Source: a virus
Virus genome (UHGV): UHGV-0313797
Length of the DNA: 31,126 bases
Reading direction: 5' to 3' (one strand)
The notes under the pieces were generated by a model. It was not told where the DNA came from and made no database searches. It saw nothing but the letters and a program-made list of their open reading frames with translations. Every line of letters begins with the position of its first letter. Position 1 is the stretch's first letter. Both the position numbers and the translations under genes were made by a program. This document shows, piece by piece, positions 263 through 18,805 of this stretch.

Positions 263-1981
263 ATGATTTTTAGGGATAGCTTGAGAGTATTACCTTATGG
301 TCGAGTAGATAATGATTTCTTCCAGATAGAAGAAAGACGTTCATGGAATGCAGGGCGATATTATTGGTCTAATAGAAGGATTTTTGGTTATATTGGAATT
401 ACTCAATCCAGTAATAAAGAGCTGAAAGATAAGTCGGGGAGAGAGGGATTCATAAGAAACCAGGCTGCAAGAGAACTGAAAACTATTATATCTAATTTGT
501 TAACTGAACTTGCTGATAGATTTTTTGGTTCACGTTCTGATGACCGTAAAGAGCTTTTAGAACAAGTTAAGCGTGAAAAAGAGTTAAGAAAATCTGCTCA
601 ACAACAAGCTCGAAAATCAACACAAAAAAGTTTTTCAGAAGCTTTGAAGAATCAGACACCAGTTCTTGATGCTTCCTTGGAGGCTGTTAAAAGGCTGAAA
701 ACTAAGCTTGATAAAACTGATGGTTCGTTAGATTTAAACTATCTTAAAATTATAGACAGTGATCTTACAAACTTAGATGCGTTGCGCAGTGAAATTAAAA
801 CGCCTATCAAACCTCCAAAACTTGGAATGTATGAAGAGAAATATAGAGACTACAGAGATAAATTTAATGAGTTCTCTGCGTATATTCTACAAATGAAGTT
901 AGCAATTAATAAACTTGATTCTGAATTAAATAAACTTGAGCCTTCATTGTCAGCGAAAAATCACCTTGAAAAAAATCAAGGTATTATTAATTCTAAACTA
1001 ACTAAGTTTAATAACACGATAGAGGAGAAGATACATTCTCTTTTAAAAAAATGGGCCGATGAAATAAAGGTTGATCGAAGTGATTATTATGCTAAAACTA
1101 TATCAGTTGTTGATTCAATAGATAATGATTCACAAATTGAAAATGTGTTTAATTTGCTCGATAGTTTATATGTTGAGTCAGTTGATACCCTAACTTTCAA
1201 ATATCAATCAATAATAAAAGGTCTCGATAGATTATTTGAAGGTATAAACTTAGATTCAGCATTCTCATTATCTGAAGAAGAACGCTCATATTTTGAAGAA
1301 AAAGCTAAAAGTTTAAACGCGCTTGCACAGTTAGGTATTAGTGTTGAGATAATATCTCATGAACTTGAAGAAATGGATTCTATGGTAACCAGAGGACTAA
1401 ACTCTCTTCCTACTTCTGTAAAAGAACACCCTGGTTTTTCATTGGCGTTAAATGCTCACAGATCGCTTACTCAACAAATACGTTTCTTATCACCTTTGAA
1501 AATATCAGGTTATCAATCCAGGCAGAGAATAACTGGAAAAAATATCATGGATTATGTCCTGAAGTTCTTTGGGGAGCGTTTCGAACGGCAACGAATAACT
1601 ATTGAATTTAGTGAAGAGTTTAAGCAAATCGCAATAACAGATATACCATCAAGGATCTATCCTGTTTTTACTAATATTATCAACAATGCAATGTATTGGG
1701 TCAGTCTGTCAAATAATAGGCTCATAAAGATTGGTTTTGTGAATTCTTTGGTTATCATAGCAAATTCTGGTCCGGCAATTGATACCGATGATATCCCGCG
1801 ACTATTTGAACTATTTTATAGCAAAAGAGCAAATGGACATGGGGTAGGTCTGTATCTATGTCGAGAAAACCTTGCTGTTGCACATCATAAAATATGGTAT
1901 TCAGAACCTGATGAAGGCGATAACTATTTAATAAAAGATGGCGCTAATTTTGTGATCCAGTTCAATGGAGTGGAGTTCTAA
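263..1981 (+). CDS. Histidine-kinase-like protein (coiled-coil N-terminal region, HisKA-like H-box, HATPase_c); possibly 5'-truncated by the IS3 insertion
   Basis: 572-aa ORF. C-terminal part shows an H-box-like ISHELEEMDS, an N-box NIINNAMYW, a G1-like IIANSGPAID and a G2 box GHGVGLYLCRE. The same frame stays open upstream from 263 back to position 137, inside the IS end. Confidence 0.6.
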   Translation: MIFRDSLRVLPYGRVDNDFFQIEERRSWNAGRYYWSNRRIFGYIGITQSSNKELKDKSGREGFIRNQAARELKTIISNLLTELADRFFGSRSDDRKELLEQVKREKELRKSAQQQARKSTQKSFSEALKNQTPVLDASLEAVKRLKTKLDKTDGSLDLNYLKIIDSDLTNLDALRSEIKTPIKPPKLGMYEEKYRDYRDKFNEFSAYILQMKLAINKLDSELNKLEPSLSAKNHLEKNQGIINSKLTKFNNTIEEKIHSLLKKWADEIKVDRSDYYAKTISVVDSIDNDSQIENVFNLLDSLYVESVDTLTFKYQSIIKGLDRLFEGINLDSAFSLSEEERSYFEEKAKSLNALAQLGISVEIISHELEEMDSMVTRGLNSLPTSVKEHPGFSLALNAHRSLTQQIRFLSPLKISGYQSRQRITGKNIMDYVLKFFGERFERQRITIEFSEEFKQIAITDIPSRIYPVFTNIINNAMYWVSLSNNRLIKIGFVNSLVIIANSGPAIDTDDIPRLFELFYSKRANGHGVGLYLCRENLAVAHHKIWYSEPDEGDNYLIKDGANFVIQFNGVEF

Positions 1982-1982
1982 T

Positions 1983-3731
1983 ATGACAGTGGCAAATTAT
2001 AATTCTCTTGTCCAGAAAACTTTCTGCGAAAATGCAATTCGTTCCGTTGTCATGATTGATGACGATTTTCTGACGTATTCTGAATCAATCAGGGCGTTGA
2101 ATAACGAAGTTGATTTAGACTACAACAAAATTGACTCATCTAAACGAGCCGCTACTCTTGAGAGCTTTTTTCAATCTAAAAATATGATTTGTGATGTTGA
2201 CAATGGTTCTGTTAATTTCGATGTGGATCGGATTAGAAAATCAGATCTTATTATTGTAGATTATCATCTTGATAATAATGCACCTGATAAAACACTTAAA
2301 CTATTACAAGATTTGAAAGACTCCGATCATTTAAATATGATTGTAATATATACTAGAGAGAATTTAGAAACGGTTTGGATGCAGATATCATCGACTCTCA
2401 AAGGTGCTCTGGATATCAACAGCTTGATCATTGACTACGATAATGAAGATGTCCAAAGTTATTGGGAAGACGTTGTATTACCGAACTTAAATGATAATGG
2501 TAATAAAGCTCTCACAAGAGATGAAACAATAGCCTATATTAAAGACAGTAAGCCTTGTAGAAGAATTAAAAGATTAATACATGATGATGCTGTGTTGAAG
2601 GATCAAAAGGATAAAAACTTCATTGCAAAAATGATTGCAGAATATGCTGTGTCTAGAAATGCAATTATTTCTAGCAACACATCTGGCAATGTCATTCGGG
2701 GTGATGAAAGCGGAGTAAAATGGATTCAATGTGGTAATATCTTTGTCTCCCTATTTCATAAGGTTCAAGATGATCATGAAAACGATGGAGATAGGATTTG
2801 GCAAACTCTCAATGATTCTCTCATTGAATGGAAACCATCTTATTATCAGTTAATAAAATCTGAAATTCAGAATGCAATCGAAGCTGAGGCTTTATCTTTT
2901 GTAAATCATTTGGCTAACGATCATTACGGTCAAGCTGCGTGGTTAAATGAGATATTAAAATCAGACTCGCCTGATATTAGATGTAGAAATATTGACTTTG
3001 TATTTGGTAATTTATCAGAAGAGCTTTATCAAAGACTTAAAAATAATAATACGCTGGATGAATTTATCAAAAGTGTTTTTGATAGCTATTCAAATGAATA
3101 CGCTAACAGCGGAGTTGCTGCATTGCTCCAATATTGCTCTTCAAAAATGGATCTGCCATCAAATAATGATACTTATCACGAAATGTATCATGCTTTAAAT
3201 ATGAATTTGTCTTCAAAGAATTTTGAAGATGGTCATATTTCTACTGGCACTATTTTCTTTGATACAGAGTCGAACAAATGGTATTTATGTGTATCTGCGG
3301 CATGTGATTTGGTTCCTACTCAGGGTAACGACCCTCACCATGTAAGATTAAGTCCGCACAGGCTCATTAAAGTTCTGGAGCTTTTTAACGCCAGTCAGAG
3401 TAAAGCATTGCCATTTGCTGAACATTCGAAATATATATATGTAATGCATAAAAATCAAAGAAAATATCTCTCTATTTTCGAAGGGGATAAAACGCTTCCT
3501 GTTGTTGATTATATGGTGGTGTTGAATCATGGAACAACAGTTGATGGCGAAGAAAAAAATATTATTTCTGCCGTGTTTTTAAGTAATATGGATGGCAACG
3601 TGCAAAATGTTCCTGTCCGACTCAAACTTAAATCTCAACTGAGAACTGGTTATGCAGAAAGATATCAGGCTATAGCGTCTCAGTATAGCTCAAGGATTGG
3701 TGTGGATTATGTATCAATGATGCTACCATAA
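1983..3731 (+). CDS. Receiver (REC)-like domain protein with a large uncharacterized C-terminal region
   Basis: ORF 1965..3731; preferred start is the ATG at 1983, 7 nt after a GGAG. N-terminus has VVMIDDD (acidic pair), then IIVDYHLD (candidate phospho-acceptor Asp) and IVIYT (conserved Thr), a receiver-like pattern with longer spacing than canonical. Residues 150-582 have no motif I recognise. Immediately follows the kinase-like gene. Confidence 0.5.
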   Translation: MTVANYNSLVQKTFCENAIRSVVMIDDDFLTYSESIRALNNEVDLDYNKIDSSKRAATLESFFQSKNMICDVDNGSVNFDVDRIRKSDLIIVDYHLDNNAPDKTLKLLQDLKDSDHLNMIVIYTRENLETVWMQISSTLKGALDINSLIIDYDNEDVQSYWEDVVLPNLNDNGNKALTRDETIAYIKDSKPCRRIKRLIHDDAVLKDQKDKNFIAKMIAEYAVSRNAIISSNTSGNVIRGDESGVKWIQCGNIFVSLFHKVQDDHENDGDRIWQTLNDSLIEWKPSYYQLIKSEIQNAIEAEALSFVNHLANDHYGQAAWLNEILKSDSPDIRCRNIDFVFGNLSEELYQRLKNNNTLDEFIKSVFDSYSNEYANSGVAALLQYCSSKMDLPSNNDTYHEMYHALNMNLSSKNFEDGHISTGTIFFDTESNKWYLCVSAACDLVPTQGNDPHHVRLSPHRLIKVLELFNASQSKALPFAEHSKYIYVMHKNQRKYLSIFEGDKTLPVVDYMVVLNHGTTVDGEEKNIISAVFLSNMDGNVQNVPVRLKLKSQLRTGYAERYQAIASQYSSRIGVDYVSMMLP

Positions 3732-3802
3732 TTATTATATTTTAGGCGTGGTGATTTTTTTTCGCCATGCCTATTTTATATTTATCATCACAATGATGTT
3801 GT

Positions 3803-4219
3803 TTATTTTTGTTTAAGTCTTCTAAGCTTCATGCATTCTAATGAGAATAATAATAGAGTTGTGCTGTATATAAAGCCAGAGTTAGTTAATAACTTTAAAT
3901 TTAATGCTTCAGGATTTTCACTGAGAAAGTGAAAGGCATAAACTAAGTATACAGCTAAAGTAGCCGTTCCAATTGTTGGTCCAATATCGCCTTGATCATG
4001 AGGTTCAAGGTTTACATTGAACTTGAAGATTAGCCATTCAAATCCCCAAGTAAAAAAAACAACTAATATCATGGCTGCGAATAATTTCGCGATGTTATCT
4101 GCTGATGGATTCATCAGAACAGATTGTTTCTGAAAAAATTCACAAAGTGAGAGTCCGAAAAAAATAAAAAAAAGTGGTCTGGAACTAAATTTTTCAAAAA
4201 CTTTGAATAGGGTTTCCAT
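3803..4219 (-). CDS. Small hydrophobic (membrane) protein, hypothetical
   Basis: 138-aa ORF with several hydrophobic stretches (LFFIFFGLSL, FAAMILVVFFTWGF, TATLAVYLVYAF); AGG-type RBS upstream of the ATG; AT-rich. Confidence 0.45.
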   Translation of the reverse strand: METLFKVFEKFSSRPLFFIFFGLSLCEFFQKQSVLMNPSADNIAKLFAAMILVVFFTWGFEWLIFKFNVNLEPHDQGDIGPTIGTATLAVYLVYAFHFLSENPEALNLKLLTNSGFIYSTTLLLFSLECMKLRRLKQK

Positions 4220-4257
4220 TTTCTTTACCTTCAGGATTATATTAGCTATTCTGATAC

Positions 4258-5487
4258 TTAGGCTACCAGAGCATTTGATCTTTGAGCTTGAAGGTAATCA
4301 CTCCACCATTGCATCAAACTCTGTCGCTCTATCAGATATTCTGCACGATTGTATGCTGCGATAATTTCATCTTTTTTCGAGTGGGCAAGCGCTGCCTCAA
4401 GAACTTCAGCTCTGAATTTACCAGACTCCTCTGCCGCTGTTCGTGCAATAGAACGCATACCGTGAGCTACAAGCTCGCCTCCGAACCCCATTCGGATGAT
4501 AGCTGCGTTGGCTGTTTGTTCATGCATATGATTAAGAGGCGCTTTTATGCTGGGGAAAACCCATTCTCTATGCCCACTTATTGATTTCATTAATTCAAGG
4601 ATGCGCAAAGCTTCTTTACTCAAAGGAACTTTGTGAAGCTTTTTCATTTTCATGAAATCAGCAGGAATGTTCCAAATGCTGTTGGTTGTATCAATATCAG
4701 ACCACCTTGCGCGAACGGCTTCACCCGGACGAACCCATGTCAACAATTGCCATTCAATTAGCATACGTGTTTCCAACCGGATTGACGCATTCGTCAAAGA
4801 TTCCATAAACCTTGGCAATTCGCTTGGGGGAAGGGCAGGCATATTTTGCTTTTTTGGTTTACTGAATCTTTGACCAAGGTTGTCAGCCGGGTTGAACTCA
4901 ATAAGTTCTTCAGTAGCTGCCCACCGGAAGATTTCATTCAGACGTGAAATGATACGGCGTAGAGTTTCCAATACGCCTCGTTGCTCAATAGGATCAAGGT
5001 GTTGTTTTAAGAGCTTAGGTCGGATCTCATTGATAGGGACATTACCCAGACCGGGAAAGACATTTCTCTCTAAGCTGCGCCAGATGTCTGCTGCATGGTC
5101 TTGTGAGATACCTGATGTCTTTACCTTCTCATCTAACCATTTCCGCGCTACGGCTTGGAGAGTGTGCTCAGTAGCACTCTTTAATGCCTTCGCCTTATCG
5201 TTGTTATGGATTTGGGGATCAACACCATTTGCCAGAAAGGAGAGATATTCATCACGTAAGGCTCTGGCTCTTGCAAGGGTAAGGTGAGGATATGTCCCAA
5301 GGCTCATTTTGGTTCTTTTCTTGCTCACTGGTACTGCATACCTGAAATACCAATTTTTCTTGCCTCCTTTCGCCAAAGGAGCGATTCGTAGAATCAGACC
5401 ATCACCGTCAAACAAGTTGATTTCTTTATCGGCTGGCTTGGTGCTTTTGATTTCAGTGTCAGTGAGCTTCTTAGCGATTTTTGCCAT
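4258..5487 (-). CDS. Tyrosine recombinase, P4-type integrase family
   Basis: ORF 4258..5529 trimmed to the ATG preceded by GGAGGG (MAKIAKKLTDTEIKS...). N-terminus resembles the P4-integrase N-terminal domain (LTDTEIKSTKPADKE...LFDGDGLILRI); catalytic-domain-like C-terminus (HGMRSIARTAAEE, AHS...AAYNRAEY). Sits directly downstream of a tmRNA 3' end copy, as CP4-57 intA does at ssrA. Confidence 0.85.
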   Translation of the reverse strand: MAKIAKKLTDTEIKSTKPADKEINLFDGDGLILRIAPLAKGGKKNWYFRYAVPVSKKRTKMSLGTYPHLTLARARALRDEYLSFLANGVDPQIHNNDKAKALKSATEHTLQAVARKWLDEKVKTSGISQDHAADIWRSLERNVFPGLGNVPINEIRPKLLKQHLDPIEQRGVLETLRRIISRLNEIFRWAATEELIEFNPADNLGQRFSKPKKQNMPALPPSELPRFMESLTNASIRLETRMLIEWQLLTWVRPGEAVRARWSDIDTTNSIWNIPADFMKMKKLHKVPLSKEALRILELMKSISGHREWVFPSIKAPLNHMHEQTANAAIIRMGFGGELVAHGMRSIARTAAEESGKFRAEVLEAALAHSKKDEIIAAYNRAEYLIERQSLMQWWSDYLQAQRSNALVA

Positions 5488-5652
5488 TTTGGGACCCTCG
5501 GTTTTTGGACCCTTCTTAGTGGGTCCCATTCAGGGTGCCATAACTCGTAGTTCTCAGCAATTCTCACTGGACGACAATAGACGTAAAAAAGCCCGCAGAG
5601 CTTGTGCTGTGTGGGCTTAGTAGACTTCATTGAACTTCAAACAACTAAAAAG

Positions 5653-5697
5653 TGGTGGAGCTGGCGGGAGTTGAACCCGCGTCCGAAATTCCTACAT
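5653..5697 (-). repeat. 45-bp copy of the tmRNA (ssrA) 3' end: attachment-site core at the junction of the two integrated elements
   Basis: Reverse complement reads ATGTAGGAATTTCGGACGCGGGTTCAACTCCCGCCAGCTCCACCA, which matches the E. coli ssrA 3' terminus as I recall it; similarity stops abruptly on the 5' side, so this is an att duplicate and not a full tmRNA gene. Confidence 0.7.
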
Positions 5698-5752
5698 ACT
5701 ATTATTTAACTATCTAAATCATAGGTTTATTAATAGTATCAATGGGATAGTT

Positions 5753-6844
5753 TTAGACTGTGTTAGGCATTTTTACGTCGTTAAACTTCTTTGTCGCCAT
5801 TTTGCCGCCACTGGAAGCTTTTATAACGTTAGGCTTTGTATATTTATCCCAGTGAGGAGAATAAATCGGACAATCAAGTGTAATATATTGATCAAAAAGA
5901 AATCTAAAGTCTGTTTCATATATATAATTAATTATATGTTCATACGGAGCTAATTCGGCACCATAAATTATCGTTTTTATTTTTCTTGTTAGATATATAC
6001 TTGCCTCAACGAATTCAAGAAAAGCATTTTCTTCGTGAGCAAAAGTAATAATACTGTATTCATTGATCGATATTTTATATCTTGCCCGCATAATACTGTC
6101 GATACAGAGCTTTTCAAAAATCATGGCTGTTTTGTTAGAAACAGAATTTATTATTCTAAGGTACTCCAGTGGTTTATTTTCTGGGGCCAGTTTCCTTGGT
6201 TTTAGTGCGTTATCTATATCTCTAAGTAATACTTCTATTTCTTCTAGGAACTTGCTGCTTGGTTCGAAGTTAGATAGGCTGTGTGGGGCTGAGTTGGGGT
6301 ATATTTTTTTATAGAGCAAGTAAGGATTTGTAATTTTAACTTGATCGGTAGTTGCTATTTTTTCATTATCAATTTCCTTGGACGAAATGATGCTTCCATC
6401 TTTGTTAGATAGATTTAAAATTGTGAAAGTAGATAAGTGGTTTATTTTTTCGATGAAGTTTTTTTCATGAGCCAAATATCTGTCAACGGCATTTTTGCTA
6501 TCAGCTGCTTGTATTTGTGCTTCGGTTTGAATTGTGCGATGAATATTGTTTACTATCGATGCGAGAGGAACAGAACTTGCTAGTAGCAATAAAGGAAACT
6601 TGCTGATCTCATAAAATCTAAAATATCCGTGAGCAGTGAGGACAGGTGTTTTTCCACTCCATGCAAAGTAACCAAAGTAAAAAAATGAAAAAACAGGAAG
6701 TAAAATCGATAACCAAAATAATTTTTGGCGGTATAGATTTCTTTTGTCTAACTTGTACCATCTCCTCCAAATGGAAATGATTAAAATTAATATAATTATT
6801 GTTGCATAAATATAAATGTATATATGGTCAGGATATGTTTTCAT
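5753..6844 (-). CDS. Membrane-anchored hypothetical protein; cargo gene translationally coupled to the prophage integrase
   Basis: 363-aa ORF; its ATG overlaps the int stop codon (ATGA overlap at 6841-6844). N-terminal predicted TM segments (ATIIILILIISIW, LFWLSILLPVFSFFYFGYFAW, FPLLLLASSVPLASIV) followed by about 270 soluble residues with no recognised motif. Visibly AT-rich compared with neighbouring phage genes. Confidence 0.6.
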   Translation of the reverse strand: MKTYPDHIYIYIYATIIILILIISIWRRWYKLDKRNLYRQKLFWLSILLPVFSFFYFGYFAWSGKTPVLTAHGYFRFYEISKFPLLLLASSVPLASIVNNIHRTIQTEAQIQAADSKNAVDRYLAHEKNFIEKINHLSTFTILNLSNKDGSIISSKEIDNEKIATTDQVKITNPYLLYKKIYPNSAPHSLSNFEPSSKFLEEIEVLLRDIDNALKPRKLAPENKPLEYLRIINSVSNKTAMIFEKLCIDSIMRARYKISINEYSIITFAHEENAFLEFVEASIYLTRKIKTIIYGAELAPYEHIINYIYETDFRFLFDQYITLDCPIYSPHWDKYTKPNVIKASSGGKMATKKFNDVKMPNTV

Positions 6845-7863
6845 ACGTGATTTATACTATTTAGTGGGTTTTTGGTTACTGCATCTTCAAGATGTTCAGG
6901 GGAAAAATGTGCATATACCATGGTCATCTTGATATCTGAGTGACCCAATATATCTCTCAATACTAGGATATTTCCGCCGTTCATCATAAAATGGCTGGCG
7001 AATGTATGGCGCAACACGTGAGTGCATTGGCCATCAGGCAGTTCGATACCGGCCCGTTTTACTGCACGCTCAAAGGCTTTTCTGCATGGTGTGAATAACT
7101 TCCCTCTGTTTTTGGGTAGCTCGTTGTACAGATCCTGAGATATCGGTACGGTGCGGTTTTTTTTACCCTTTGTCTTTGTATAGGTAATCCGGTATTTCGA
7201 TAGTTGATGTCCCTGCAGGTTTTCAGCTTCACTCCAACGTGCACCAGTTGCTAGGCATATTTTTGCAATCATCAGCAGACTGGGGCTTTGAGAATCAGCA
7301 CAGGCATCTAGCAGACGTTTAATTTCTTCCGGAGTCAAGAACGCCAGTTCACCTTCAGTAATTTTAAATGTTGGAAGCCCGGCAAGAGGGTTGGGGGCTG
7401 ACCAGTGGCCCAGCTTTTTCAGTGTACCAAAAACCGATGATAGGTTGCGTTGTTCAAGATTTACCGTGCGGGGCTTAACGGGCGACATTAGCGTGCCATC
7501 TTCATTTCGCACTTCACCTTTTAGCCGTGCTTCGCGGTATTTCGTAAAGTCACCGGCAGTCAGCTCTGAAGCGATGGGATCGCCTAGACCATTACAGATA
7601 ATTCTAAGTTTCGCCATGAGGCGCTTGGGGTCTGCGAGTGTTTGACCATATAGGGAATACCACAGCTCAATTAATTCTGATAGGCGTCTGCGATCTTCCT
7701 TTTCCCCCAACCATGGTTTTTTGTTCACTTCTTCCATTGTGAAGCTTTCAAAAGCAATGGCTTCGCCTTTTGTAGCAAATTGCTTACGTACGCGCTTGCC
7801 ATTGCGTCCATTGGGATAGCACTCACACAACCATTTACCGTTTGGCTGTTTTCTGACAGTCAT
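6841..7863 (-). CDS. int: P2-type prophage integrase (tyrosine recombinase)
   Basis: 340 aa; C-terminal catalytic region HVLRHTFASHFMMNGGNILVLRDILGHSDIKMTMVYAHF is typical of P2/186 integrases; size and position next to the repressor gene match the P2-family layout. Confidence 0.9.
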   Translation of the reverse strand: MTVRKQPNGKWLCECYPNGRNGKRVRKQFATKGEAIAFESFTMEEVNKKPWLGEKEDRRRLSELIELWYSLYGQTLADPKRLMAKLRIICNGLGDPIASELTAGDFTKYREARLKGEVRNEDGTLMSPVKPRTVNLEQRNLSSVFGTLKKLGHWSAPNPLAGLPTFKITEGELAFLTPEEIKRLLDACADSQSPSLLMIAKICLATGARWSEAENLQGHQLSKYRITYTKTKGKKNRTVPISQDLYNELPKNRGKLFTPCRKAFERAVKRAGIELPDGQCTHVLRHTFASHFMMNGGNILVLRDILGHSDIKMTMVYAHFSPEHLEDAVTKNPLNSINHV

Positions 7864-7865
7864 GT

Positions 7866-8498
7866 TTAGATACTCTTTATTACTTTGACTGCGCGCCCAA
7901 TAATTTCCACATCATCAGCAGAACACTCGAAAGACGCTTCATCTTGATTTACTACAATCTTATTGCCGGGAATCCGCATGATTTTTGCAATAATAATCAT
8001 TCCATCAATATTGATTAGCCAGAATCCATTGCTGACTTGTTTAACTGATTTATCGATGAGATAACAATCAGTTGGGGTTTCTAAGAACATCGATTCTTCA
8101 TAATGTGCAGGTAATATGCTGTGGTCTAGGAAAATATCTTCATCAATACTGAGTTTTCCATTCTCTAAGGTTCCTTTAGGAATAGATGGAGTTATGAGTT
8201 TGGATAGTGGTTTAATTGCTTGTTTGTTCTCATTATGAGATCTTTTCTCAGGCTCACATCCTCCTTTCATGCTTCCCTGGCCTGTAGCTAACCAAAGCAA
8301 CGAAACACCGGTTTCTAGTGCGCACTGAATTATCCAGTCAGCAGGAAAACTGTCGCGTAACACTCTGTTTGCCATAGTGCTTTTTGAGACATTCAGGTGC
8401 TCGCTTAATGCCTGCTTAGTTGTGAATCCATAAGCCTCAAGCAGCCTCTCAATAGCTGCCTTGCCTCCCGTATCGGAACCCATTCTGATGTTTAACAT
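7866..8498 (-). CDS. cI: Immunity repressor, phage 186 CI-like
   Basis: ORF 7866..8546 trimmed to the ATG preceded by GGAGA (MLNIRMGSD...). N-terminal HTH-like region (CALETGVSLLWLATGQG) resembles 186 CI; divergent from apl and upstream of int as in 186. Confidence 0.75.
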   Translation of the reverse strand: MLNIRMGSDTGGKAAIERLLEAYGFTTKQALSEHLNVSKSTMANRVLRDSFPADWIIQCALETGVSLLWLATGQGSMKGGCEPEKRSHNENKQAIKPLSKLITPSIPKGTLENGKLSIDEDIFLDHSILPAHYEESMFLETPTDCYLIDKSVKQVSNGFWLINIDGMIIIAKIMRIPGNKIVVNQDEASFECSADDVEIIGRAVKVIKSI

Positions 8499-8619
8499 TG
8501 GTAATCTCCATTTGAAAATCTTGAGTCGAGATCGTAATGTCTTCATGTCTCTTGATGTGAGAGTTTAAGAGACGGACTAAAACGAACTAACACGCACACA
8601 AAGTAAGAGATACTGCACT
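8499..8619. promoter_or_regulatory. Lysis-lysogeny switch region (expected face-to-face lytic and lysogenic promoters with operators)
   Basis: 121-bp intergenic region between the divergent cI and apl genes; call is by position and analogy to the 186/P2 switch. Individual promoter hexamers were not resolved. Confidence 0.4.
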
Positions 8620-14259: not shown

Positions 14260-14351
14260 TTACGCTGGTTAACAATTCGTGCTCTTAATAATACCAGGCA
14301 TATCAGGCTGATAAGCGTAAAAAAACGTTTTACATCAGTAAGATTATTATA

Positions 14352-14371
14352 TACTGTAAATATAAACAGTG
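14352..14371. promoter_or_regulatory. LexA (SOS) box
   Basis: TACTGTAAATATAAACAGTG: CTGT-N8-ACAG with an AT-rich spacer, matching the LexA consensus; lies about 40 bp upstream of the small ORF at 14413. Confidence 0.6.
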
Positions 14372-14412
14372 GTTATGCATACAGTATTGCGTGTGGTGTC
14401 ATAGGAGGAAAG

Positions 14413-14601
14413 ATGCAGGACTATTTTTTGGAGTCTTTGAAGCTCCAGCGCATTGATTTTTTTCTTAAGCTTGTAGCGGCTAGTGAGTGCGATGATGAAG
14501 AGAAGCGGCTTGCTATCCAGTGGGTTTCGGAGCTGACCGATGAGTTAATGGCGAAAATCCGTACTCATGAGTACAACCGTTCAATGGATCTCCCCGGTTA
14601 G
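14413..14601 (+). CDS. Small SOS-controlled protein; candidate Tum-like antirepressor
   Basis: 62-aa ORF with a strong RBS (AGGAGG, 6 nt spacer); preceded by the LexA box; in the position of the LexA-regulated tum gene of phage 186. Sequence identity to Tum was not verified. Confidence 0.45.
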   Translation: MQDYFLESLKLQRIDFFLKLVAASECDDEEKRLAIQWVSELTDELMAKIRTHEYNRSMDLPG

Positions 14602-15186
14602 GCTTAGGAACGTTGCTGGCGTTAGGACTTGATTCTGACGCTAGCAAGGTTGATCAACGAGCCATGCGAGGCGTTAGTCATGGGCAAAAAAATAGTAACT
14701 TCCAGATTTTGTTTCGTGCCAGGTATTGAGTAGTTTTATCGCCAGAGGGGCTGTTAGCGCTCAAACTACTAATGGAGCCACACCTTAGATGAGTGATTTG
14801 GCTTAAGCTATGATTATATAGTTTCGCTGTACGGCGGCCTTGCTTTTTATTGAAGCGACCAGACTGGAACAACGGCGAAAGGAGACTAACGATACGCACC
14901 AGTTTTTTGAAAAGGTACAGTTATCTAGATTGGTTGCCAATTTTCGTTGAAACCTGACATACCATTAGGTCATTGCTTTAGAAAAATTAATACTTGATGT
15001 GAGAATTGCTTCAAAACATCTAGAATTAAAATTTCTTTACTAGTATGCTTCACCACTTGGTCGTTGGGTTGAGTGCAAAAGCTAAGGCTGATGCCCAGTA
15101 CGCTATCCGCATTATTGCCAGAGAACCGATTCGAAACCGGAATCTGGCAGAGCATGGGCGCAAGTGCTGGCTTCCCAACGGCCTCG

Positions 15187-16155
15187 TTATTTATAATATG
15201 CTGACTTCAAAACCACTCGTCTTTCAACCTGCTGTGATAGCATTACCGCGTTAGTCCAATCTTTTGGATACCTTATTTCTTCTATAACACGAATATAAGC
15301 ACATACTTTATTTTTTCCTTCTCCTTTGGCATAAGTAACCTCTAGATTATTAAATTTCAATAAGTGCTCTCTTCTTTGGTAAGTAAAACAGCCGTAATCA
15401 CGGACATCAGAAGAAGTAATAGCATGAGTTGAAGGAAACCGAACTAGTAAATTTCTCAAGTAGGGAATAATGTCCAAACTCGTTGCTTTGTTTTCTTCTC
15501 TGCGACTCTTTCTGAACATATGTCTCCAACCCAGCCGTGTAAGCTCGATTTTCCCAAGCACCGGAGATGTGATTTCTTTCTGTTCAGAATAACGTTTTTT
15601 AACAAACGCTCGCCGATTATTAAGTAGTGAGTTTCTTCTTCTTACATGGATTCCTTTTGCTCCAGTTTCACCTGCACGTATCATGGACATACAGCGAGCC
15701 AGGTCAAACCGTGTAGCCGGAGTGATTAAGTGATATTCTCCATAAGTTTGGTTTTTAAGGGTAGTGTTTGGATGTATATAGGCCCAAAATGCTTTACGAT
15801 TAGTTCTGTCAACCCAAACGACACATATATGGTGAGTTGTCCTTTTGGCTGCTTTTTTTGCGGCCGAATTTAATACAAAACCTTTCTCTAATAAATGACC
15901 ATAAGTTGCCCCTGATTTAACTTGCGACAATATAAGCATTCTTTCTTTTGATGCCCATGGATGTTCGAAGGATAATATTAAATCTATTTTTGAATTGTCG
16001 TCTTCCCTGGAACCCCAGTGCCCCTCTCCTCTACAAGCAAGAATGAATTGACTCATTGCATAAGATTCGGCGTCACTGCCGTTAACTGAGTTAAACTGTC
16101 TTGTTTCTAGCACAGTTGGTATTGGTCGTGATGCAAGTAAACTGAAAGATCCCAC
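15187..16155 (-). CDS. Uncharacterized cargo protein in the A-Q variable locus; possible PD-(D/E)xK-like N-terminal region
   Basis: 322-aa ORF starting at a GTG 8 nt downstream of GGAGAG. AT-rich. N-terminal region has GEGHWGSREDDNSKIDLILSFEHP...ERMLILSQVKSG, a D...(Q)xK pattern compatible with a restriction-endonuclease-like fold; a strongly basic segment (IHVRRRNSLLNNRRAFVKKRYSEQKE) follows. No confident family assignment. Confidence 0.55.
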   Translation of the reverse strand: MGSFSLLASRPIPTVLETRQFNSVNGSDAESYAMSQFILACRGEGHWGSREDDNSKIDLILSFEHPWASKERMLILSQVKSGATYGHLLEKGFVLNSAAKKAAKRTTHHICVVWVDRTNRKAFWAYIHPNTTLKNQTYGEYHLITPATRFDLARCMSMIRAGETGAKGIHVRRRNSLLNNRRAFVKKRYSEQKEITSPVLGKIELTRLGWRHMFRKSRREENKATSLDIIPYLRNLLVRFPSTHAITSSDVRDYGCFTYQRREHLLKFNNLEVTYAKGEGKNKVCAYIRVIEEIRYPKDWTNAVMLSQQVERRVVLKSAYYK

Positions 16156-16592
16156 TTATAGTTCTCTCCAAAAAATTGCATAATCTCGAACGCTAAAAAA
16201 TAGTATACAAACTAAAGTATTTTTTCATTTAATTCAATGTATTGGCTAAAATTAAGACATTTATAGCTATATGTACTAGATAACATAGCGTTGTTTTCCT
16301 TTTGAAATCTCTTCTTGTGGTAACACAACAGTATTTACTCAAGTAGTTTGTCACTGCATGGGGAGATTTCGCTATGTCCGCGGCATCATACAGATGCGAT
16401 AGATTTTCAGCATGACCTTGGGTAGCAAATCTGTAGGTATCATCCATTGCACCTCAAAGTAACTCTGGTGCATACCTATGCTGCATGAAAATGAATGATC
16501 GCTAGTGGATCGTTTATGTCGAAGCCTGCCAGTTCTGACGGGCTTTTGCTTATGTTATGCAACTGCATGAAAACCACTACACAAAGCGGGCA

Positions 16593-16611
16593 GGCGTGGC
16601 GGGGATACGAG
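16593..16611. other. Candidate cos site (cohesive-end sequence of the P2/186-like genome)
   Basis: GGCGTGGCGGGGATACGAG shares its first 13 nt with the 19-nt cohesive end of phage 186 (GGCGTGGCGGGGAAAGCAT, from memory) and lies in the A-Q interval where P2-like prophages carry cos. Confidence 0.45.
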
Positions 16612-16719
16612 CGCGCGCTGTATGCCTGAAGTGGCTAAAATAGTATCTGTCATAGGTACAACTTAGTGTAGTATCATCCATATAATCCATTGAAATATAA
16701 TCGACTCTCATTAGAGGTG

Positions 16720-17718
16720 ATGATGAACGGAATCTGGTACGAAAACACTCATACACGCATTCCTAATTTTGAAACAACAGTACATCAAAAGCACAAATTC
16801 GGTTACGCTTATGAAACAACAAGTCATTTTGTGCATCTGTATGGGCGTGACGTGGGATTTAATGTAATATCAGTTGGGTTAACTGTTATTGAGCAACGAA
16901 GTGGAACTCTCAATGATTGGGTTCGGAGAGTATTTGGGGCTCAGAACATATCTCCTTTAGATAATGAAATTGGACATGTAACTAGGGGAGTGTGGCGGCC
17001 ATCCTTATATTATGTCAATGATACAGAAACAGCATTAGGTATCGATGAGTTTGAAAAAAGAGCAACAGAGCAAGCTCTAAGAGTTTTGATAGAAAAACTC
17101 GATGATATTTTTCTATATGTAGAACCAAGTGCCCATGGTTTGATTTCTTACAGTCATAAATGTAGAGAGCTATTAATTCTTGCTTGTACTGAGGTTGAAA
17201 ATCAATGGGTGTCAATCATTGGTAATTCGAATTTATCTCGTTCAAATGGTCGATACTCCACAAATGATTATGTGAAATTATTAGATAAGTGTTATTTGTC
17301 TGAATATAAAATTCAATATTTGAATTATGACGGATTAAGGCATTTCAAACCTTTTGATGGGTGGAATGCAAGTACCCCTACAACATCTTTGTCATGGTAT
17401 AATGCATATAATAAAACTAAACATGATAGATCAGGAGCATTCCACTTTTCCACTTTAGAAAATGTAATGGATGCAGTTGCTGCTTGTGTTGTAATGTACT
17501 GTGTAAAATATGGCCCGTTTAGCTTATTGGAAGCCAATACGTCTCTATCAACGATCGTTAATCAAAACTTTTCAATTTCATTAGATAATAGCAATCCAGC
17601 AAGTTATTACATTCCTGAAATTGAACTTCCACCGGATACAAGAACGGATTTATTAATTTATGATTGTTATCGAGAAAACCATAATAAAGCATGGGTCACT
17701 GATCCCCTAGTGCTCTAA
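16720..17718 (+). CDS. Uncharacterized cargo protein with a HEPN-like Rx4H motif; candidate abortive-infection effector
   Basis: ORF 16690..17718 trimmed to the ATG after AGAGGTG (MMNGIWYENTH...). AT-rich. C-terminal region has YNKTKHDRSGAFHFSTLENVMDAVAAC; RSGAFH fits the R-x4-H signature of HEPN RNase domains. Single-motif evidence only. Confidence 0.55.
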   Translation: MMNGIWYENTHTRIPNFETTVHQKHKFGYAYETTSHFVHLYGRDVGFNVISVGLTVIEQRSGTLNDWVRRVFGAQNISPLDNEIGHVTRGVWRPSLYYVNDTETALGIDEFEKRATEQALRVLIEKLDDIFLYVEPSAHGLISYSHKCRELLILACTEVENQWVSIIGNSNLSRSNGRYSTNDYVKLLDKCYLSEYKIQYLNYDGLRHFKPFDGWNASTPTTSLSWYNAYNKTKHDRSGAFHFSTLENVMDAVAACVVMYCVKYGPFSLLEANTSLSTIVNQNFSISLDNSNPASYYIPEIELPPDTRTDLLIYDCYRENHNKAWVTDPLVL

Positions 17719-17728
17719 TTTCCTGCTA

Positions 17729-17758
17729 AAGGGAGCTTTTAATTATAAACGCTCCCTT
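17729..17758. terminator. Hairpin between convergent genes (possible bidirectional terminator)
   Basis: Perfect 8-bp inverted repeat AAGGGAGC / GCTCCCTT around a 14-nt AT-rich loop, located between the stops at 17718 (+) and 17775 (-); no clear U-tract. Confidence 0.35.
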
Positions 17759-17774
17759 CGGTTGTCGCTATTTA

Positions 17775-18748
17775 TTATATATCAATAGAGTTTTGAAATT
17801 TTAATAACTGCCATCTTGTTAATAGTGGTTTTATTGCTATGTTGTGTTGGGTATTTATTTTTAAACCTTCGAATTTCGAATATCCATTTTCCAAGGCTTC
17901 CACTGAAAAATGAATGGTTTTTGTTATCGGGTTTATAGCACAAAGATTTAGGTTATATAAAGTATGAATGTCACTTCTGAGCAATAATCCATTGCTAATA
18001 TGATTGTGACTATCGTTTCGATATACATTAATGTGAGCAGCATCAAGAATATCAACAAGCTTACAGCCCATAACCGCACAAGTAGGATTTGATTTTAATA
18101 GCTGGTCGCGAAATGTTTTTTGCCCACTTCGTTGTTTTATTTGCCGTTCTACAATTTGCCGTTGATCTTCACCCATTAAAGTGGGGGTGTCTTTATCAGC
18201 TTCGCTGGCGTTGAGCTCCAGAATAATAGTATGTTGGGCGGTAAGCAAAGCAACAGCCCATTGATAGTTAACTTCTTGGATGGACATTTGCCCATTGTAG
18301 CGTGGAGTTTCATCTATAAATTGTGACATTGTAATATTGGATAATTTACGGTACTGGTTGCCGCAGTATGCTATAAATTCTTTAGCTGGCTCAAAAACCA
18401 CTCTGGGTTCATCAAATTCATGGCCATTATCACAACGCCACTCTGATTTTATAGTTTTCCTTTGAAGAATTTTTTTGCTTTGCAGTCTAGGTTAATACAT
18501 TTGTTACGCTTCTTATTAATGCTCTGTGTTTCTAATTTTTCAATAACAGATATACCTAAAATATTTTCTCTGTTGGTAATAATAATAATATCACCGTCTT
18601 TTACATTTTTGTGGTTCGCTACAAAACTGTCATAGCGATAGAAAACTGATGAGTCATCGGGATAACTATCATTTCCCCAGTATCTAAGATCGTCTTTCTC
18701 AATTGCCTTAAAAAAAACCATACTTGCTGTACCATGAACTTTTCCCAC
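17775..18748 (-). pseudogene. HNH-family endonuclease (HNH_2-like) split by a frameshift in a homopolymer tract
   Basis: Two consecutive minus-strand ORFs (18449..18748 and 17775..18401) overlap in different frames around a run of 7 A (minus strand) at 18470-18476; one extra A would fuse them into about 320 aa. Downstream part has CAVMGCKLVDILDAAHINVYRNDSHNHISNGLLLRSDIHTLYNLN (C..C...AHI....SNGL.L...H..Y), the signature of McrA-like HNH nucleases. Confidence 0.6.
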
Positions 18749-18805
18749 TAATCAAATTTTGGTTTGTTCTATCGAACAGCAAAGCATGTTGATATACAAG
18801 AGAAA

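What the first reader, a model, noticed from the sequence alone, without database searches (positions are those of the whole stretch)
5753..6844. AT-rich membrane-protein gene translationally coupled to the prophage integrase, inserted between int and the attachment site
The 363-aa ORF begins with an ATG that overlaps the int stop codon, so it is most likely co-transcribed and co-translated with int from the lysogenic operon, meaning it would be expressed in the lysogen. It encodes two or three N-terminal transmembrane helices and a large soluble domain of unknown function, and it is markedly AT-rich. P2-like phages normally have int directly beside attP. A lysogen-expressed membrane protein at a prophage end is the typical signature of a superinfection-exclusion or lysogenic-conversion moron.
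Basis: partly seen in the sequence, partly recalled or inferred. Interest (0 to 1): 0.6.

Follow-up and report, generated by a model that had tools for sequence, protein, structure and literature searches.

The report
Membrane-protein cargo beside prophage integrase
A 363-residue inner-membrane protein from a large, unnamed family fills a swap-prone cargo slot between the integrase gene and the attachment site of a 186-like prophage; related phages carry known anti-phage genes in that slot, so it is a good but untested candidate for a new phage-defence or exclusion protein.

Summary
ORF 5753-6844(-) is a real gene under purifying selection (dN/dS 0.10-0.16). Its ATG overlaps the int stop codon (ATGA). 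GC is 32.5%, against 45.8% for int and 50.9% for the rest of the prophage. The protein has three N-terminal TM helices and a probably cytoplasmic C-domain.

New findings:
- The prophage is 186-like and sits in the 3' end of ssrA. The 45-nt att core is at 5653-5697.
- The ORF fills the whole space from the int stop codon to the attP arm. Its codons 345-351 read through a 20-nt pair of arm-type repeats that recurs on the other arm.
- In 19 related E. coli prophages the slot holds this family (4), two other unknown families (7, 3), a DCD-like gene plus ThyX (1), anti-phage dCTP deaminase (2) or GapS1 (1), or is empty (1). This int-att hotspot was described in 2026.
- The family is large (991 representatives) and has no Pfam, NCBIfam or PADLOC model, only PHROG 17460 ("unknown function"). 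No fold match was found in PDB or BFVD.
- The membrane module is near-invariant; the C-domains fall into at least 36 types.

Most likely this is a lysogen-expressed anti-phage protein. Function and expression are inferred, not shown.

The parts
7866..8546 (-). 186-type CI immunity repressor, first gene of the leftward (lysogenic) operon. PGAP calls the shorter 633-nt version, 7866-8498.
   Evidence: Pfam Phage_CI_repr 2e-30 and Phage_CI_C 1.3e-30. Annotated 'phage repressor protein CI' in strain MS1665, which is 99.7% identical.
6841..7863 (-). P2/186-type tyrosine integrase. It starts 3 nt after the CI stop codon, and its own stop codon overlaps the ORF's ATG.
   Evidence: Pfam Int_N 9.6e-30 and Phage_integrase 8.6e-25; phrog_1 integrase. 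dN/dS 0.02-0.03.
5753..6844 (-). The finding: a 363-aa membrane protein of an unnamed family (PHROG 17460), carried as cargo in the int-attP slot.
6440..6844 (-). Conserved membrane module, aa 1-135. TM1 is about 6767-6829, TM2 about 6659-6724 and TM3 about 6545-6607. A juxtamembrane helix at 6440-6544 carries the NNIHRTIQTE motif.
   Evidence: Invariant residues G58 W62 G73 F77 P84 I97 H102 R103 T104 Q106 Q110 K117 D121 H126 K128. Mean pairwise identity 59%. All 199 members tested form a single similarity cluster.
5816..6439 (-). Polymorphic C-terminal alpha/beta domain, aa 136-343, predicted to be cytoplasmic.
5792..5811 (-). Pair of direct repeats (GTGGCGGCAAAATGGCGACA; TGGCGRCA twice, 11 nt apart), interpreted as arm-type Int-binding sites of attP. 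It lies inside ORF codons 345-351.
   Evidence: The identical 20-mer lies on the other arm beside the intact ssrA in MS1665 (L027 12704-12723). The same repeats follow unrelated cargo, and directly follow the int stop codon in the empty-slot prophage. In the last 20 codons dS is about 0 and dN/dS exceeds 5 in the two comparisons with P0004 (not computable for window vs P0002, where dS = 0). Binding by Int is inferred, not tested.
5653..5697 (-). att core (attR): a 45-nt copy of the 3' end of ssrA, ATGTAGGAATTTCGGACGCGGGTTCAACTCCCGCCAGCTCCACCA.
   Evidence: Exact 45-nt identity with the 3' end of the intact tmRNA gene at the far end of the prophage in MS1665. Unique in the window, with 0 matches expected by chance.
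5589..5603 (-). Terminator-like hairpin downstream of the ssrA fragment (inferred to be the native ssrA terminator). It is the first terminator-like site downstream of the cI-int-ORF unit.
   Evidence: AAGCTCTGCGGGCTT followed by TTTTACGTCT.

Best explanation
The ORF is an accessory ('moron') gene carried by a 186-like temperate phage that integrates into the 3' end of ssrA. It occupies a recombination-prone cargo slot bounded by the int stop codon on one side and the arm-type Int sites of attP on the other.

Proposed expression (inferred). The gene has no promoter or ribosome-binding site of its own. It is therefore made in the lysogen by read-through of the leftward cI-int transcript (pL, and pE during establishment) and by termination-reinitiation at the ATGA overlap. 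Coupled translation would also protect this AT-rich message from Rho-dependent polarity.

Proposed protein layout (predicted). It inserts in the inner membrane with three TM helices, N-terminus out and C-terminus in. A long conserved helix connects TM3 to a cytoplasmic alpha/beta domain.

Proposed function (inferred). I think the most likely role is protection of the lysogen against other phages. The polymorphic cytoplasmic domain would act as the specificity or sensor part and recognise a phage-derived cue. The near-invariant TM and juxtamembrane module would act as the effector. It would most likely oligomerise and compromise the membrane, giving abortive infection or an early block.

Shown here: the anatomy, purifying selection, accessory status, the hotspot, the company of known defence genes, and the modular conservation pattern. 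Inferred: expression, topology, the anti-phage role and the effector/sensor split.
For: Anatomy: ATGA overlap, no Shine-Dalgarno sequence, no intervening terminator. The tight int-ORF junction is conserved in 72 IMG/VR loci and in Cronobacter, Klebsiella, Citrobacter and Cedecea.

Inside the phage: the att core and arm repeats lie distal to the gene. A circularised relative carries the gene.

The 186 literature uses an int-lacZ fusion as a read-out of leftward transcription (PMC7708051).

Hotspot: in 19 E. coli prophages of this int lineage the slot holds four unrelated families of unknown function, an anti-phage dCTP deaminase (PADLOC dCTPase, 1.7e-145), GapS1, or nothing. PMC13586616 independently reports the int-att region of P2-like phages as a minor defence hotspot holding 3% of their systems.

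The family also occurs in other conflict contexts:
- the canonical gpA-portal defence hotspot of a P2-like phage;
- next to a SMODS + S_4TM CBASS in Yersinia;
- next to an AAA_15/21 ATPase and PemK in Erwinia;
- in an ICE in Dickeya.

Modular pattern: the N-module forms one cluster with 100% of pairs detectably similar. The C-domains form 36 clusters with only 5.9% of pairs similar. Both parts are under purifying selection.

Horizontal origin: 32.5% GC within a 51% GC phage.
Against: There is no experimental evidence of expression or of any phenotype.

The protein has no homology to any known defence protein (PADLOC). It has no Pfam or NCBIfam match and no structural neighbour. The functional assignment therefore rests on context alone.

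AT-rich DNA in E. coli is often silenced by H-NS.

71 of 80 IMG/VR copies sit next to a P2/186-type int. That could instead mean a role tied to this phage group's own biology.

No catalytic motif is conserved in the C-domain. The proposed pore or depolarisation activity has no direct support, because no oligomer model could be made.
Confidence: 0.55

Rival explanations
1. Non-abortive superinfection exclusion at the inner membrane. The conserved TM module and short periplasmic loop dock onto a conserved host inner-membrane component, or onto the incoming injection machinery, and block DNA entry without killing the cell. This would work like HK97 gp15, P22 SieA or T4 Imm, or like SNIPE minus the nuclease.
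For: The TM helices and the 19-residue periplasmic loop are the best-conserved parts. That fits contact with a conserved partner. The protein would be made constitutively in the lysogen (inferred). SNIPE shows that membrane-resident, prophage-associated proteins can act at genome injection (PMC13190303).
Against: The diversifying part is predicted to be cytoplasmic, not periplasmic. Recognition of incoming tail or tape-measure proteins from the periplasmic side would predict the opposite pattern. There is no homology to any known Sie protein.
Confidence: 0.2
2. A lysogenic-conversion or host-fitness factor unrelated to phages, for example envelope or stress physiology, colonisation, or interbacterial competition.
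For: Cargo at prophage ends includes many non-defence morons. The other proteins in this slot are mostly of unknown function. The protein is a membrane protein with no recognisable enzymatic domain.
Against: The named genes in the same slot are anti-phage: dCTP deaminase, GapS1 and PDC candidates. The family turns up in other defence hotspots and islands. There is no match to Gtr or Oac-type O-antigen modification genes or to any virulence family. A C-domain that falls into 36 types points to an arms race.
Confidence: 0.15
3. An accessory factor for the phage's own integration, excision or lysogeny control. On this view it is kept next to int because it works with Int or attP.
For: 89% of IMG/VR copies are directly downstream of a P2/186-type int, and the junction is conserved. 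The ORF physically overlaps the arm-type sites.
Against: Related prophages integrate at the same site with unrelated cargo or with an empty slot. The family also occurs away from any int: in an ICE, in the gpA-portal hotspot, next to CBASS and next to umuDC. A membrane protein is an odd recombination cofactor, and 186 already has Apl as its directionality factor (PMC7498355).
Confidence: 0.05
4. Not a functional gene: a chance ORF in AT-rich junk, or a decaying remnant.
For: Low GC and no annotation other than 'hypothetical protein'. One E. coli copy is disrupted (EC96).
Against: dN/dS is 0.10-0.16. There are 991 family representatives with invariant residues. The AlphaFold2 models are confident.
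Confidence: 0.01

Closest known systems
The int-att defence hotspot of P2-like prophages (PMC13586616, NAR 2026)
   Same: [quoted passage not shown] It has the same property of holding alternative defence systems. That paper reports 3% of P2 defence systems there. My sample finds dCTP deaminase and GapS1 in the identical slot.
   Different: In the text I could read, that paper counts recognisable systems and does not describe this protein family; its supplements were not available. Three things appear to be new: the exact borders (int stop codon to arm repeats), the overlap of the ORF with both borders, and the family itself.
The classical P2 accessory loci old/tin (gpA-gpQ hotspot) and Z/fun (Rousset et al. 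2022, PMC9122126)
   Same: AT-rich, swappable, lysogen-active anti-phage cargo of P2-like phages. One family member (P0096) sits in the gpA-portal hotspot itself.
   Different: In the window the position and the mode of expression differ: read-through from cI-int rather than the gene's own promoter. There is no sequence relationship to Old, Tin or Fun, and no PADLOC hit.
SNIPE, a membrane-bound nuclease that cuts phage DNA during injection (PMC13190303)
   Same: A single-protein defence that sits constitutively in the membrane, with a cytoplasmic part and diversified domains among homologues.
   Different: SNIPE is defined by a nuclease domain. The ORF has no nuclease or any other Pfam domain and no structural match.
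Membrane exclusion and abortive-infection proteins of temperate phages (lambda RexB, P22 SieA/SieB, HK97 gp15, T4 Imm) — recalled from general knowledge
   Same: Small to medium inner-membrane proteins expressed from the prophage that protect the lysogen.
   Different: No detectable homology. The architecture here, an invariant 3-TM module joined to a large polymorphic cytoplasmic domain, is not that of these proteins.
Transmembrane effectors of signalling defence systems (CBASS S_4TM/S_2TMBeta, SLATT, Pycsar TM effectors)
   Same: A conserved TM module that may act on the membrane. One relative lies beside a SMODS + S_4TM pair.
   Different: No Pfam match to these families. There is no cyclase partner: the gene is stand-alone in every context seen.
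O-antigen conversion modules (gtrABC, oac) beside int-attP in P22-like and Shigella phages — recalled from general knowledge
   Same: Lysogen-expressed membrane-protein cargo placed next to int and attP.
   Different: No GtrA/B/C or acyltransferase domains. This protein has 3 TM helices plus a cytoplasmic domain, not a polytopic transferase.

Membership tests
Cargo of the P2/186-like int-attP hotspot | Lies between int and the att core, inside the mobile element | tested here: met
   int 6841-7863, ORF 5753-6844, arm repeats 5792-5811, att core 5653-5697. The intact ssrA lies at the other end of the 36-kb prophage in MS1665. A circular relative carries the gene.
Cargo of the P2/186-like int-attP hotspot | Closely related phages carry unrelated genes, or nothing, at the same position | tested here: met
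   19 E. coli prophages: this family 4, family B 7, family C 3, DCD-like + ThyX 1, dCTP deaminase 2, GapS1 1, empty 1.
Cargo of the P2/186-like int-attP hotspot | Known defence systems are among the alternatives | tested here: met
   PADLOC dCTPase 1.7e-145. PGAP names 'anti-phage dCTP deaminase' and 'GapS1 family protein'. GAPS1 is described as an anti-phage system in bioRxiv 10.1101/2023.03.28.534373. PDC-S49 occupies the Rahnella slot.
Anti-phage defence or exclusion protein (functional class) | Reduces infection by at least one phage when expressed | not testable with these tools
   Needs plaque and liquid-infection assays.
Anti-phage defence or exclusion protein (functional class) | Expressed in the lysogen | not testable with these tools
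   Only inferred from the operon structure and from what is known of leftward transcription in 186.
PHROG 17460 | Significant match to the family profile | tested here: met
   E = 1.5e-45, aa 8-286 against profile positions 5-284 of 343. The family is annotated 'unknown function'.
Any known defence protein family (PADLOC-DB v2.0.0) | HMM match | tested here: not met
   0 families at E <= 0.1.
Any curated protein family (Pfam-A 2025, NCBIfam 20.0) | HMM match above the curated cut-off | tested here: not met
   Only DUF6814 at 13.6 bits against a cut-off of 25. No NCBIfam match. Ten distant members also have no Pfam match.
SNIPE-like membrane nucleases | A nuclease domain attached to the membrane anchor | tested here: not met
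HEPN-domain effectors | Four-helix HEPN fold with a conserved R-x4-6-H motif | tested here: not met
CBASS/Pycsar/SLATT-type TM effectors | Profile match and a partner signal-generating enzyme in the operon | tested here: not met
   No Pfam match. The gene stands alone in all contexts.
Gtr/Oac-type serotype-conversion genes | GtrA, GtrB, GtrC or acyltransferase domains | tested here: not met
   No such Pfam hits.

The most novel reading that the evidence does not exclude
The ORF may represent a new, widespread single-protein immunity family with a previously unseen fold. On this reading an invariant 3-TM plus juxtamembrane module (NNIHRTIQTE, with a polar stripe H102/Q106/Q110/K117/D121/H126/K128) is a new kind of membrane effector. 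Dozens of interchangeable cytoplasmic C-domains would be phage-specific sensors. The gene would be expressed by piggy-backing translationally on the integrase gene and would end inside attP.
Probability: 0.35. Interest if true: 0.65.

Novelty: new variant of a known kind. Interest (0 to 1): 0.45.

Why it matters
Prophage hotspots have been one of the richest sources of new bacterial immune systems. This slot is small and has sharply defined borders: the int stop codon on one side and the attP arm repeats on the other. It is present in about 4% of complete E. coli genomes and already contains two validated systems. Most of its occupants, however, are unknown: this family, a roughly 400-aa family B and a 222-aa family C.

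Family A alone has about 1000 representative clusters at 50% identity and no name in any curated library. Showing that it defends would add a new membrane effector and sensor architecture. It would also provide a natural set of swapped specificity domains to study.

The anatomy shows how a phage can add a lysogen-expressed gene without a promoter, a ribosome-binding site or any spare DNA, even sharing bases with both int and attP. It also explains a 'conserved C-terminal peptide' (GGxLAAEH) as a by-product of a DNA-binding site. That is a useful caution for annotation.

Tried and rejected
- tRNA/tmRNA and Rfam scans of the window found nothing. The ssrA piece is only the 3' 45 nt, so the att site was identified by sequence and by comparison with the intact ssrA in MS1665 instead.
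- Pfam, PADLOC and NCBIfam gave no family for the ORF.
- A PDB sequence-profile search gave only noise, E >= 0.29.
- I tested whether the alternative cargo proteins (401 aa and 222 aa) are hidden relatives of the ORF. They are not.
- Literature searches for the accession, the PHROG id and the topic found no description of the family. The supplements of PMC13586616 are not held.
- The genome-contig scan returned only 6 loci because of its pattern-based seeding. IMG/VR was more productive.
- The promoter scan found fewer sites than in shuffled sequence (7 found, 9.7 expected) and none upstream of the ORF within int. pL itself was not located.

Full report
**1. What is there.** The ORF at 5753-6844 (minus strand, 363 aa) exists as described. 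Its ATG shares bases with the TGA of the upstream integrase gene (6841-7863) in an ATGA. The 26 nt before the ATG hold no Shine-Dalgarno-like sequence. No terminator-like hairpin separates the two genes. The first one on that strand is at 5603-5589, downstream of the ssrA fragment and presumably its own terminator. GC content is 32.5% (GC3 29%), against 45.8% for int and 50.9% for the remaining prophage. Upstream of int lies a 186-type CI repressor (Pfam Phage_CI_repr and Phage_CI_C). The divergent genes are Rha/Apl-like, CII, Fil, DUF5347, DUF2732, a TraR/DksA-family regulator, Dam and gpA. So the phage is 186-like rather than P2-like in its switch.

The window is 99.7% identical over the compared stretch 5500-8600 to E. 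coli MS1665, GDAR2-2 and DETEC-S566, and only those 3 of 5426 complete E. coli genomes carry this allele.

**2. It is a real gene.**
- Against the 86% and 83% identical homologues from Citrobacter-type hosts, dN/dS is 0.10-0.16 (int: 0.02-0.03).
- The word-indexed search found 96 homologous clusters, all Enterobacterales and all 'hypothetical'.
- A profile search of 1.84 billion representatives found 991 at E <= 1e-3 and 208 at E <= 1e-30.
- AlphaFold2 models are confident: full length pLDDT 86.7 and pTM 0.73; C-domain alone pLDDT 83.8 and pTM 0.84.

**3. Where the phage ends.** Directly after the ORF, 5653-5697 is a 45-nt copy of the 3' end of ssrA. In MS1665 the intact tmRNA gene and smpB lie about 36 kb away, at the other end of the prophage. 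A P4-type integrase (4258-5529) follows the ssrA fragment, so a second island uses the same attB in tandem.

A 20-nt pair of direct repeats, GTGGCGGCAAAATGGCGACA (TGGCGRCA twice, 11 nt apart), lies at 5792-5811, which is 94 nt from the core. The identical 20-mer lies 47 nt from the core on the other arm. The same repeats follow unrelated cargo in other prophages. In the one empty-slot prophage (L3Cip3) they begin 3 nt after the int stop codon. I read them as arm-type Int sites of attP. The 186 attP is known to have core and arm Int sites (PMC7498355), but binding here was not tested.

These repeats sit inside codons 345-351 of the ORF. The family's 'conserved' C-terminal tail (GGxLAAEH; SGGKMAT here) has low pLDDT. 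In the last 20 codons dS is about 0 in all three comparisons, and dN/dS exceeds 5 in the two with P0004. So the tail is constrained as DNA, not as protein. Among 71 complete IMG/VR copies the repeat pair starts inside the ORF in 27 and 2-58 nt after it in 14. The gene therefore fills the slot completely and shares bases with both neighbours.

**4. The slot is a hotspot.** 201 of 5426 E. coli genomes carry this int lineage. I inspected 19 prophages:

| Occupant of the slot | Prophages |
|---|---|
| This family (A): window, MFDS1016424, SMN197SH3, and a disrupted copy with IS5 in EC96 | 4 |
| Unrelated ~400-aa soluble family (B), including LF82 | 7 |
| 222-aa family (C) | 3 |
| DCD-like gene plus ThyX pair | 1 |
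| Anti-phage dCTP deaminase | 2 |
| GapS1 | 1 |
| Empty | 1 |

PADLOC confirms the dCTP deaminase (1.7e-145). It also assigns the occupant of the Rahnella slot to candidate PDC-S49. GAPS1 is a published anti-phage system. [quoted passage not shown] So the hotspot is known. The family, and the exact way it is embedded, are not described in anything I could find.

**5. Where else the family occurs.**
- The same CI-int-gene arrangement is found in Cronobacter, Klebsiella aerogenes, K. pneumoniae, Citrobacter, Cedecea and Erwinia. It is also found in a circular 37-kb element deposited as a plasmid.
- Of 80 IMG/VR loci, 71 have a P2/186-type int ending less than 150 nt upstream. The distance from the int stop codon to the ATG is -4 in 26 of 72 loci and within -44 to +7 in almost all.
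- Away from int, a member sits in the canonical gpA-portal hotspot of a P2-like phage. Others lie beside a SMODS + S_4TM CBASS in Yersinia, in a Dickeya ICE next to an Mrr-like gene, beside umuDC in Pseudomonas chlororaphis, and in another prophage type in Xenorhabdus.
- The gene is always stand-alone. In K. aerogenes it is followed by a family B gene.

**6. The protein.** There are three hydrophobic segments, at about aa 4-30, 42-61 and 80-98. The 27-40 loop has 6 K/R, which predicts N-out/C-in. The model gives TM1 (6-26), TM2 (41-62) and a 67-residue helix (71-137) that contains TM3 and a cytoplasmic stalk, followed by an alpha/beta domain (139-335).

Conservation is very uneven. TM2, the short periplasmic loop, TM3 and the stalk hold every invariant residue but one (L177): G58 W62 G73 F77 P84 I97 H102 R103 T104 Q106 Q110 K117 D121 H126 K128, with the motif NNIHRTIQTE. 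Mean pairwise identity is 59% for aa 28-135 and 20% for aa 186-343. Among 199 members, the N-modules form one similarity cluster in which every pair is detectably similar. The C-domains form 36 clusters, and only 5.9% of pairs are similar. Within the close clade the C-domain is still under purifying selection (dN/dS 0.08-0.17). So it is functional but replaced or diversified over longer times.

No known family or fold matches:
- Pfam, PADLOC and NCBIfam give nothing. PHROG 17460 matches but is annotated 'unknown function'.
- The PDB profile search gives noise.

**7. How it most likely works.**
- Shown: it is phage-borne accessory cargo, joined to the lysogenic cI-int unit without signals of its own. 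It sits in a slot and in neighbourhoods populated by anti-phage genes. It has an invariant membrane module and a polymorphic soluble domain.
- Inferred: it is expressed in the lysogen by read-through from pL/pE and by translational coupling. In 186, int is read by leftward transcription.
- Inferred: the C-domain is cytoplasmic.
- Inferred: the protein protects the lysogen from other phages, with the C-domain as specificity determinant and the membrane module as effector. An anchor alone would not be this conserved. The Ser/Pro/Gly/Asn-rich TM3 and the one-sided polar stripe on the stalk suggest oligomerisation or a pore.

I give about 0.55 to the anti-phage reading as a whole, and roughly 0.3 to the abortive, membrane-compromising version specifically.

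Rivals:
- An injection-blocking exclusion protein (0.2). Its weakness is that the variable part faces the cytoplasm.
- A phage-unrelated conversion factor (0.15).
- An Int or lysogeny accessory (0.05). This is contradicted by the empty and alternative slots and by copies far from any int.
- A non-gene (0.01), which is refuted.

**8. Verdict.** The kind of thing is known: prophage hotspot cargo in a recently described int-att hotspot. What is new:
- a large, unnamed family with no fold match in PDB or BFVD;
- its conserved-effector/polymorphic-domain architecture;
- its packing between, and overlap with, int and the attP arm sites.

Interest is moderate. It is a well-defined, cheap-to-test defence candidate rather than a surprise.

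Noticed in passing
window 263-5529: A second island sits at the same ssrA attB, with a P4-type integrase (4258-5529, minus strand). Its AT-rich cargo is an overlapping pair, HATPase_c + HEF_HK (263-1981, 572 aa) and Response_reg_2 (1965-3731, 588 aa), plus a 138-aa membrane protein (3803-4219, minus strand). No PADLOC system matched. It looks like an uncharacterised two-gene kinase/receiver conflict system in the P4 int-proximal hotspot.
   Followed up: partly
window ~14260-18800: The canonical P2 gpA-portal (old/tin) hotspot of this prophage is also AT-rich (33-43% GC). It holds two proteins with no Pfam or PADLOC match (15187-16155 minus strand, 322 aa; 16690-17718 plus strand, 342 aa) and a 208-aa HNH_2 protein (17775-18401, minus strand).
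   Followed up: partly
L002 3318-4523; L025 715-1941; L042 1352-2575; L045 1363-2574; L008 7184-8377: 'Family B' is a soluble protein of about 400 aa (for example WP_001429732 in LF82 and DEC9B). It is the commonest occupant of the int-attP slot in my E. coli sample (7 of 19). The members scanned have no Pfam or PADLOC match (L002, L008; L042 PADLOC only), and L002 has no NCBIfam match. In K. aerogenes it follows a family A gene in tandem.
   Followed up: partly
window 5756-5815 (ORF codons 344-363), and the C-termini of homologues in alignment A1: The apparently conserved C-terminal peptide GGxLAAEH of the family is the translation of the attP arm-type repeats. In these codons dS is about 0 and dN/dS exceeds 5 in the two P0004 comparisons. 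This is DNA-level conservation that looks like a protein motif.
   Followed up: yes
L027 11397-12473 (MS1665, outside the window); L032 7897-8970: A ParA/CbiA-family ATPase gene lies between ogr and attL/ssrA, at the other end of the MS1665 prophage. A similar gene follows the family A gene in Cedecea. So there is accessory cargo at the other att-proximal position as well.
   Followed up: no
L033 11695-12951; L034 10274-12067: In one P2-like phage a PADLOC candidate PDC-S59 gene is inserted between CI and int. In a Rahnella prophage remnant the int-att slot holds a KAP-NTPase-like PDC-S49 candidate.
   Followed up: partly
L046 1387-1563 and 1548-2579 (E. coli SMN197SH3): PGAP annotates the att fragment as a 177-nt partial 'tmRNA' that overlaps the 3' end of the family A CDS by 16 nt. 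This is an annotation artefact of the ssrA duplication created by integration.
   Followed up: no
L004 3360-4915 (E. coli TUM12355; also WL297): In two genomes the slot holds a 261-aa dCTP-deaminase/dUTPase-like protein plus a ThyX thymidylate synthase. This pair is distinct from the 577-aa anti-phage dCTP deaminase and is not recognised by PADLOC. It may be a nucleotide-pool system.
   Followed up: partly
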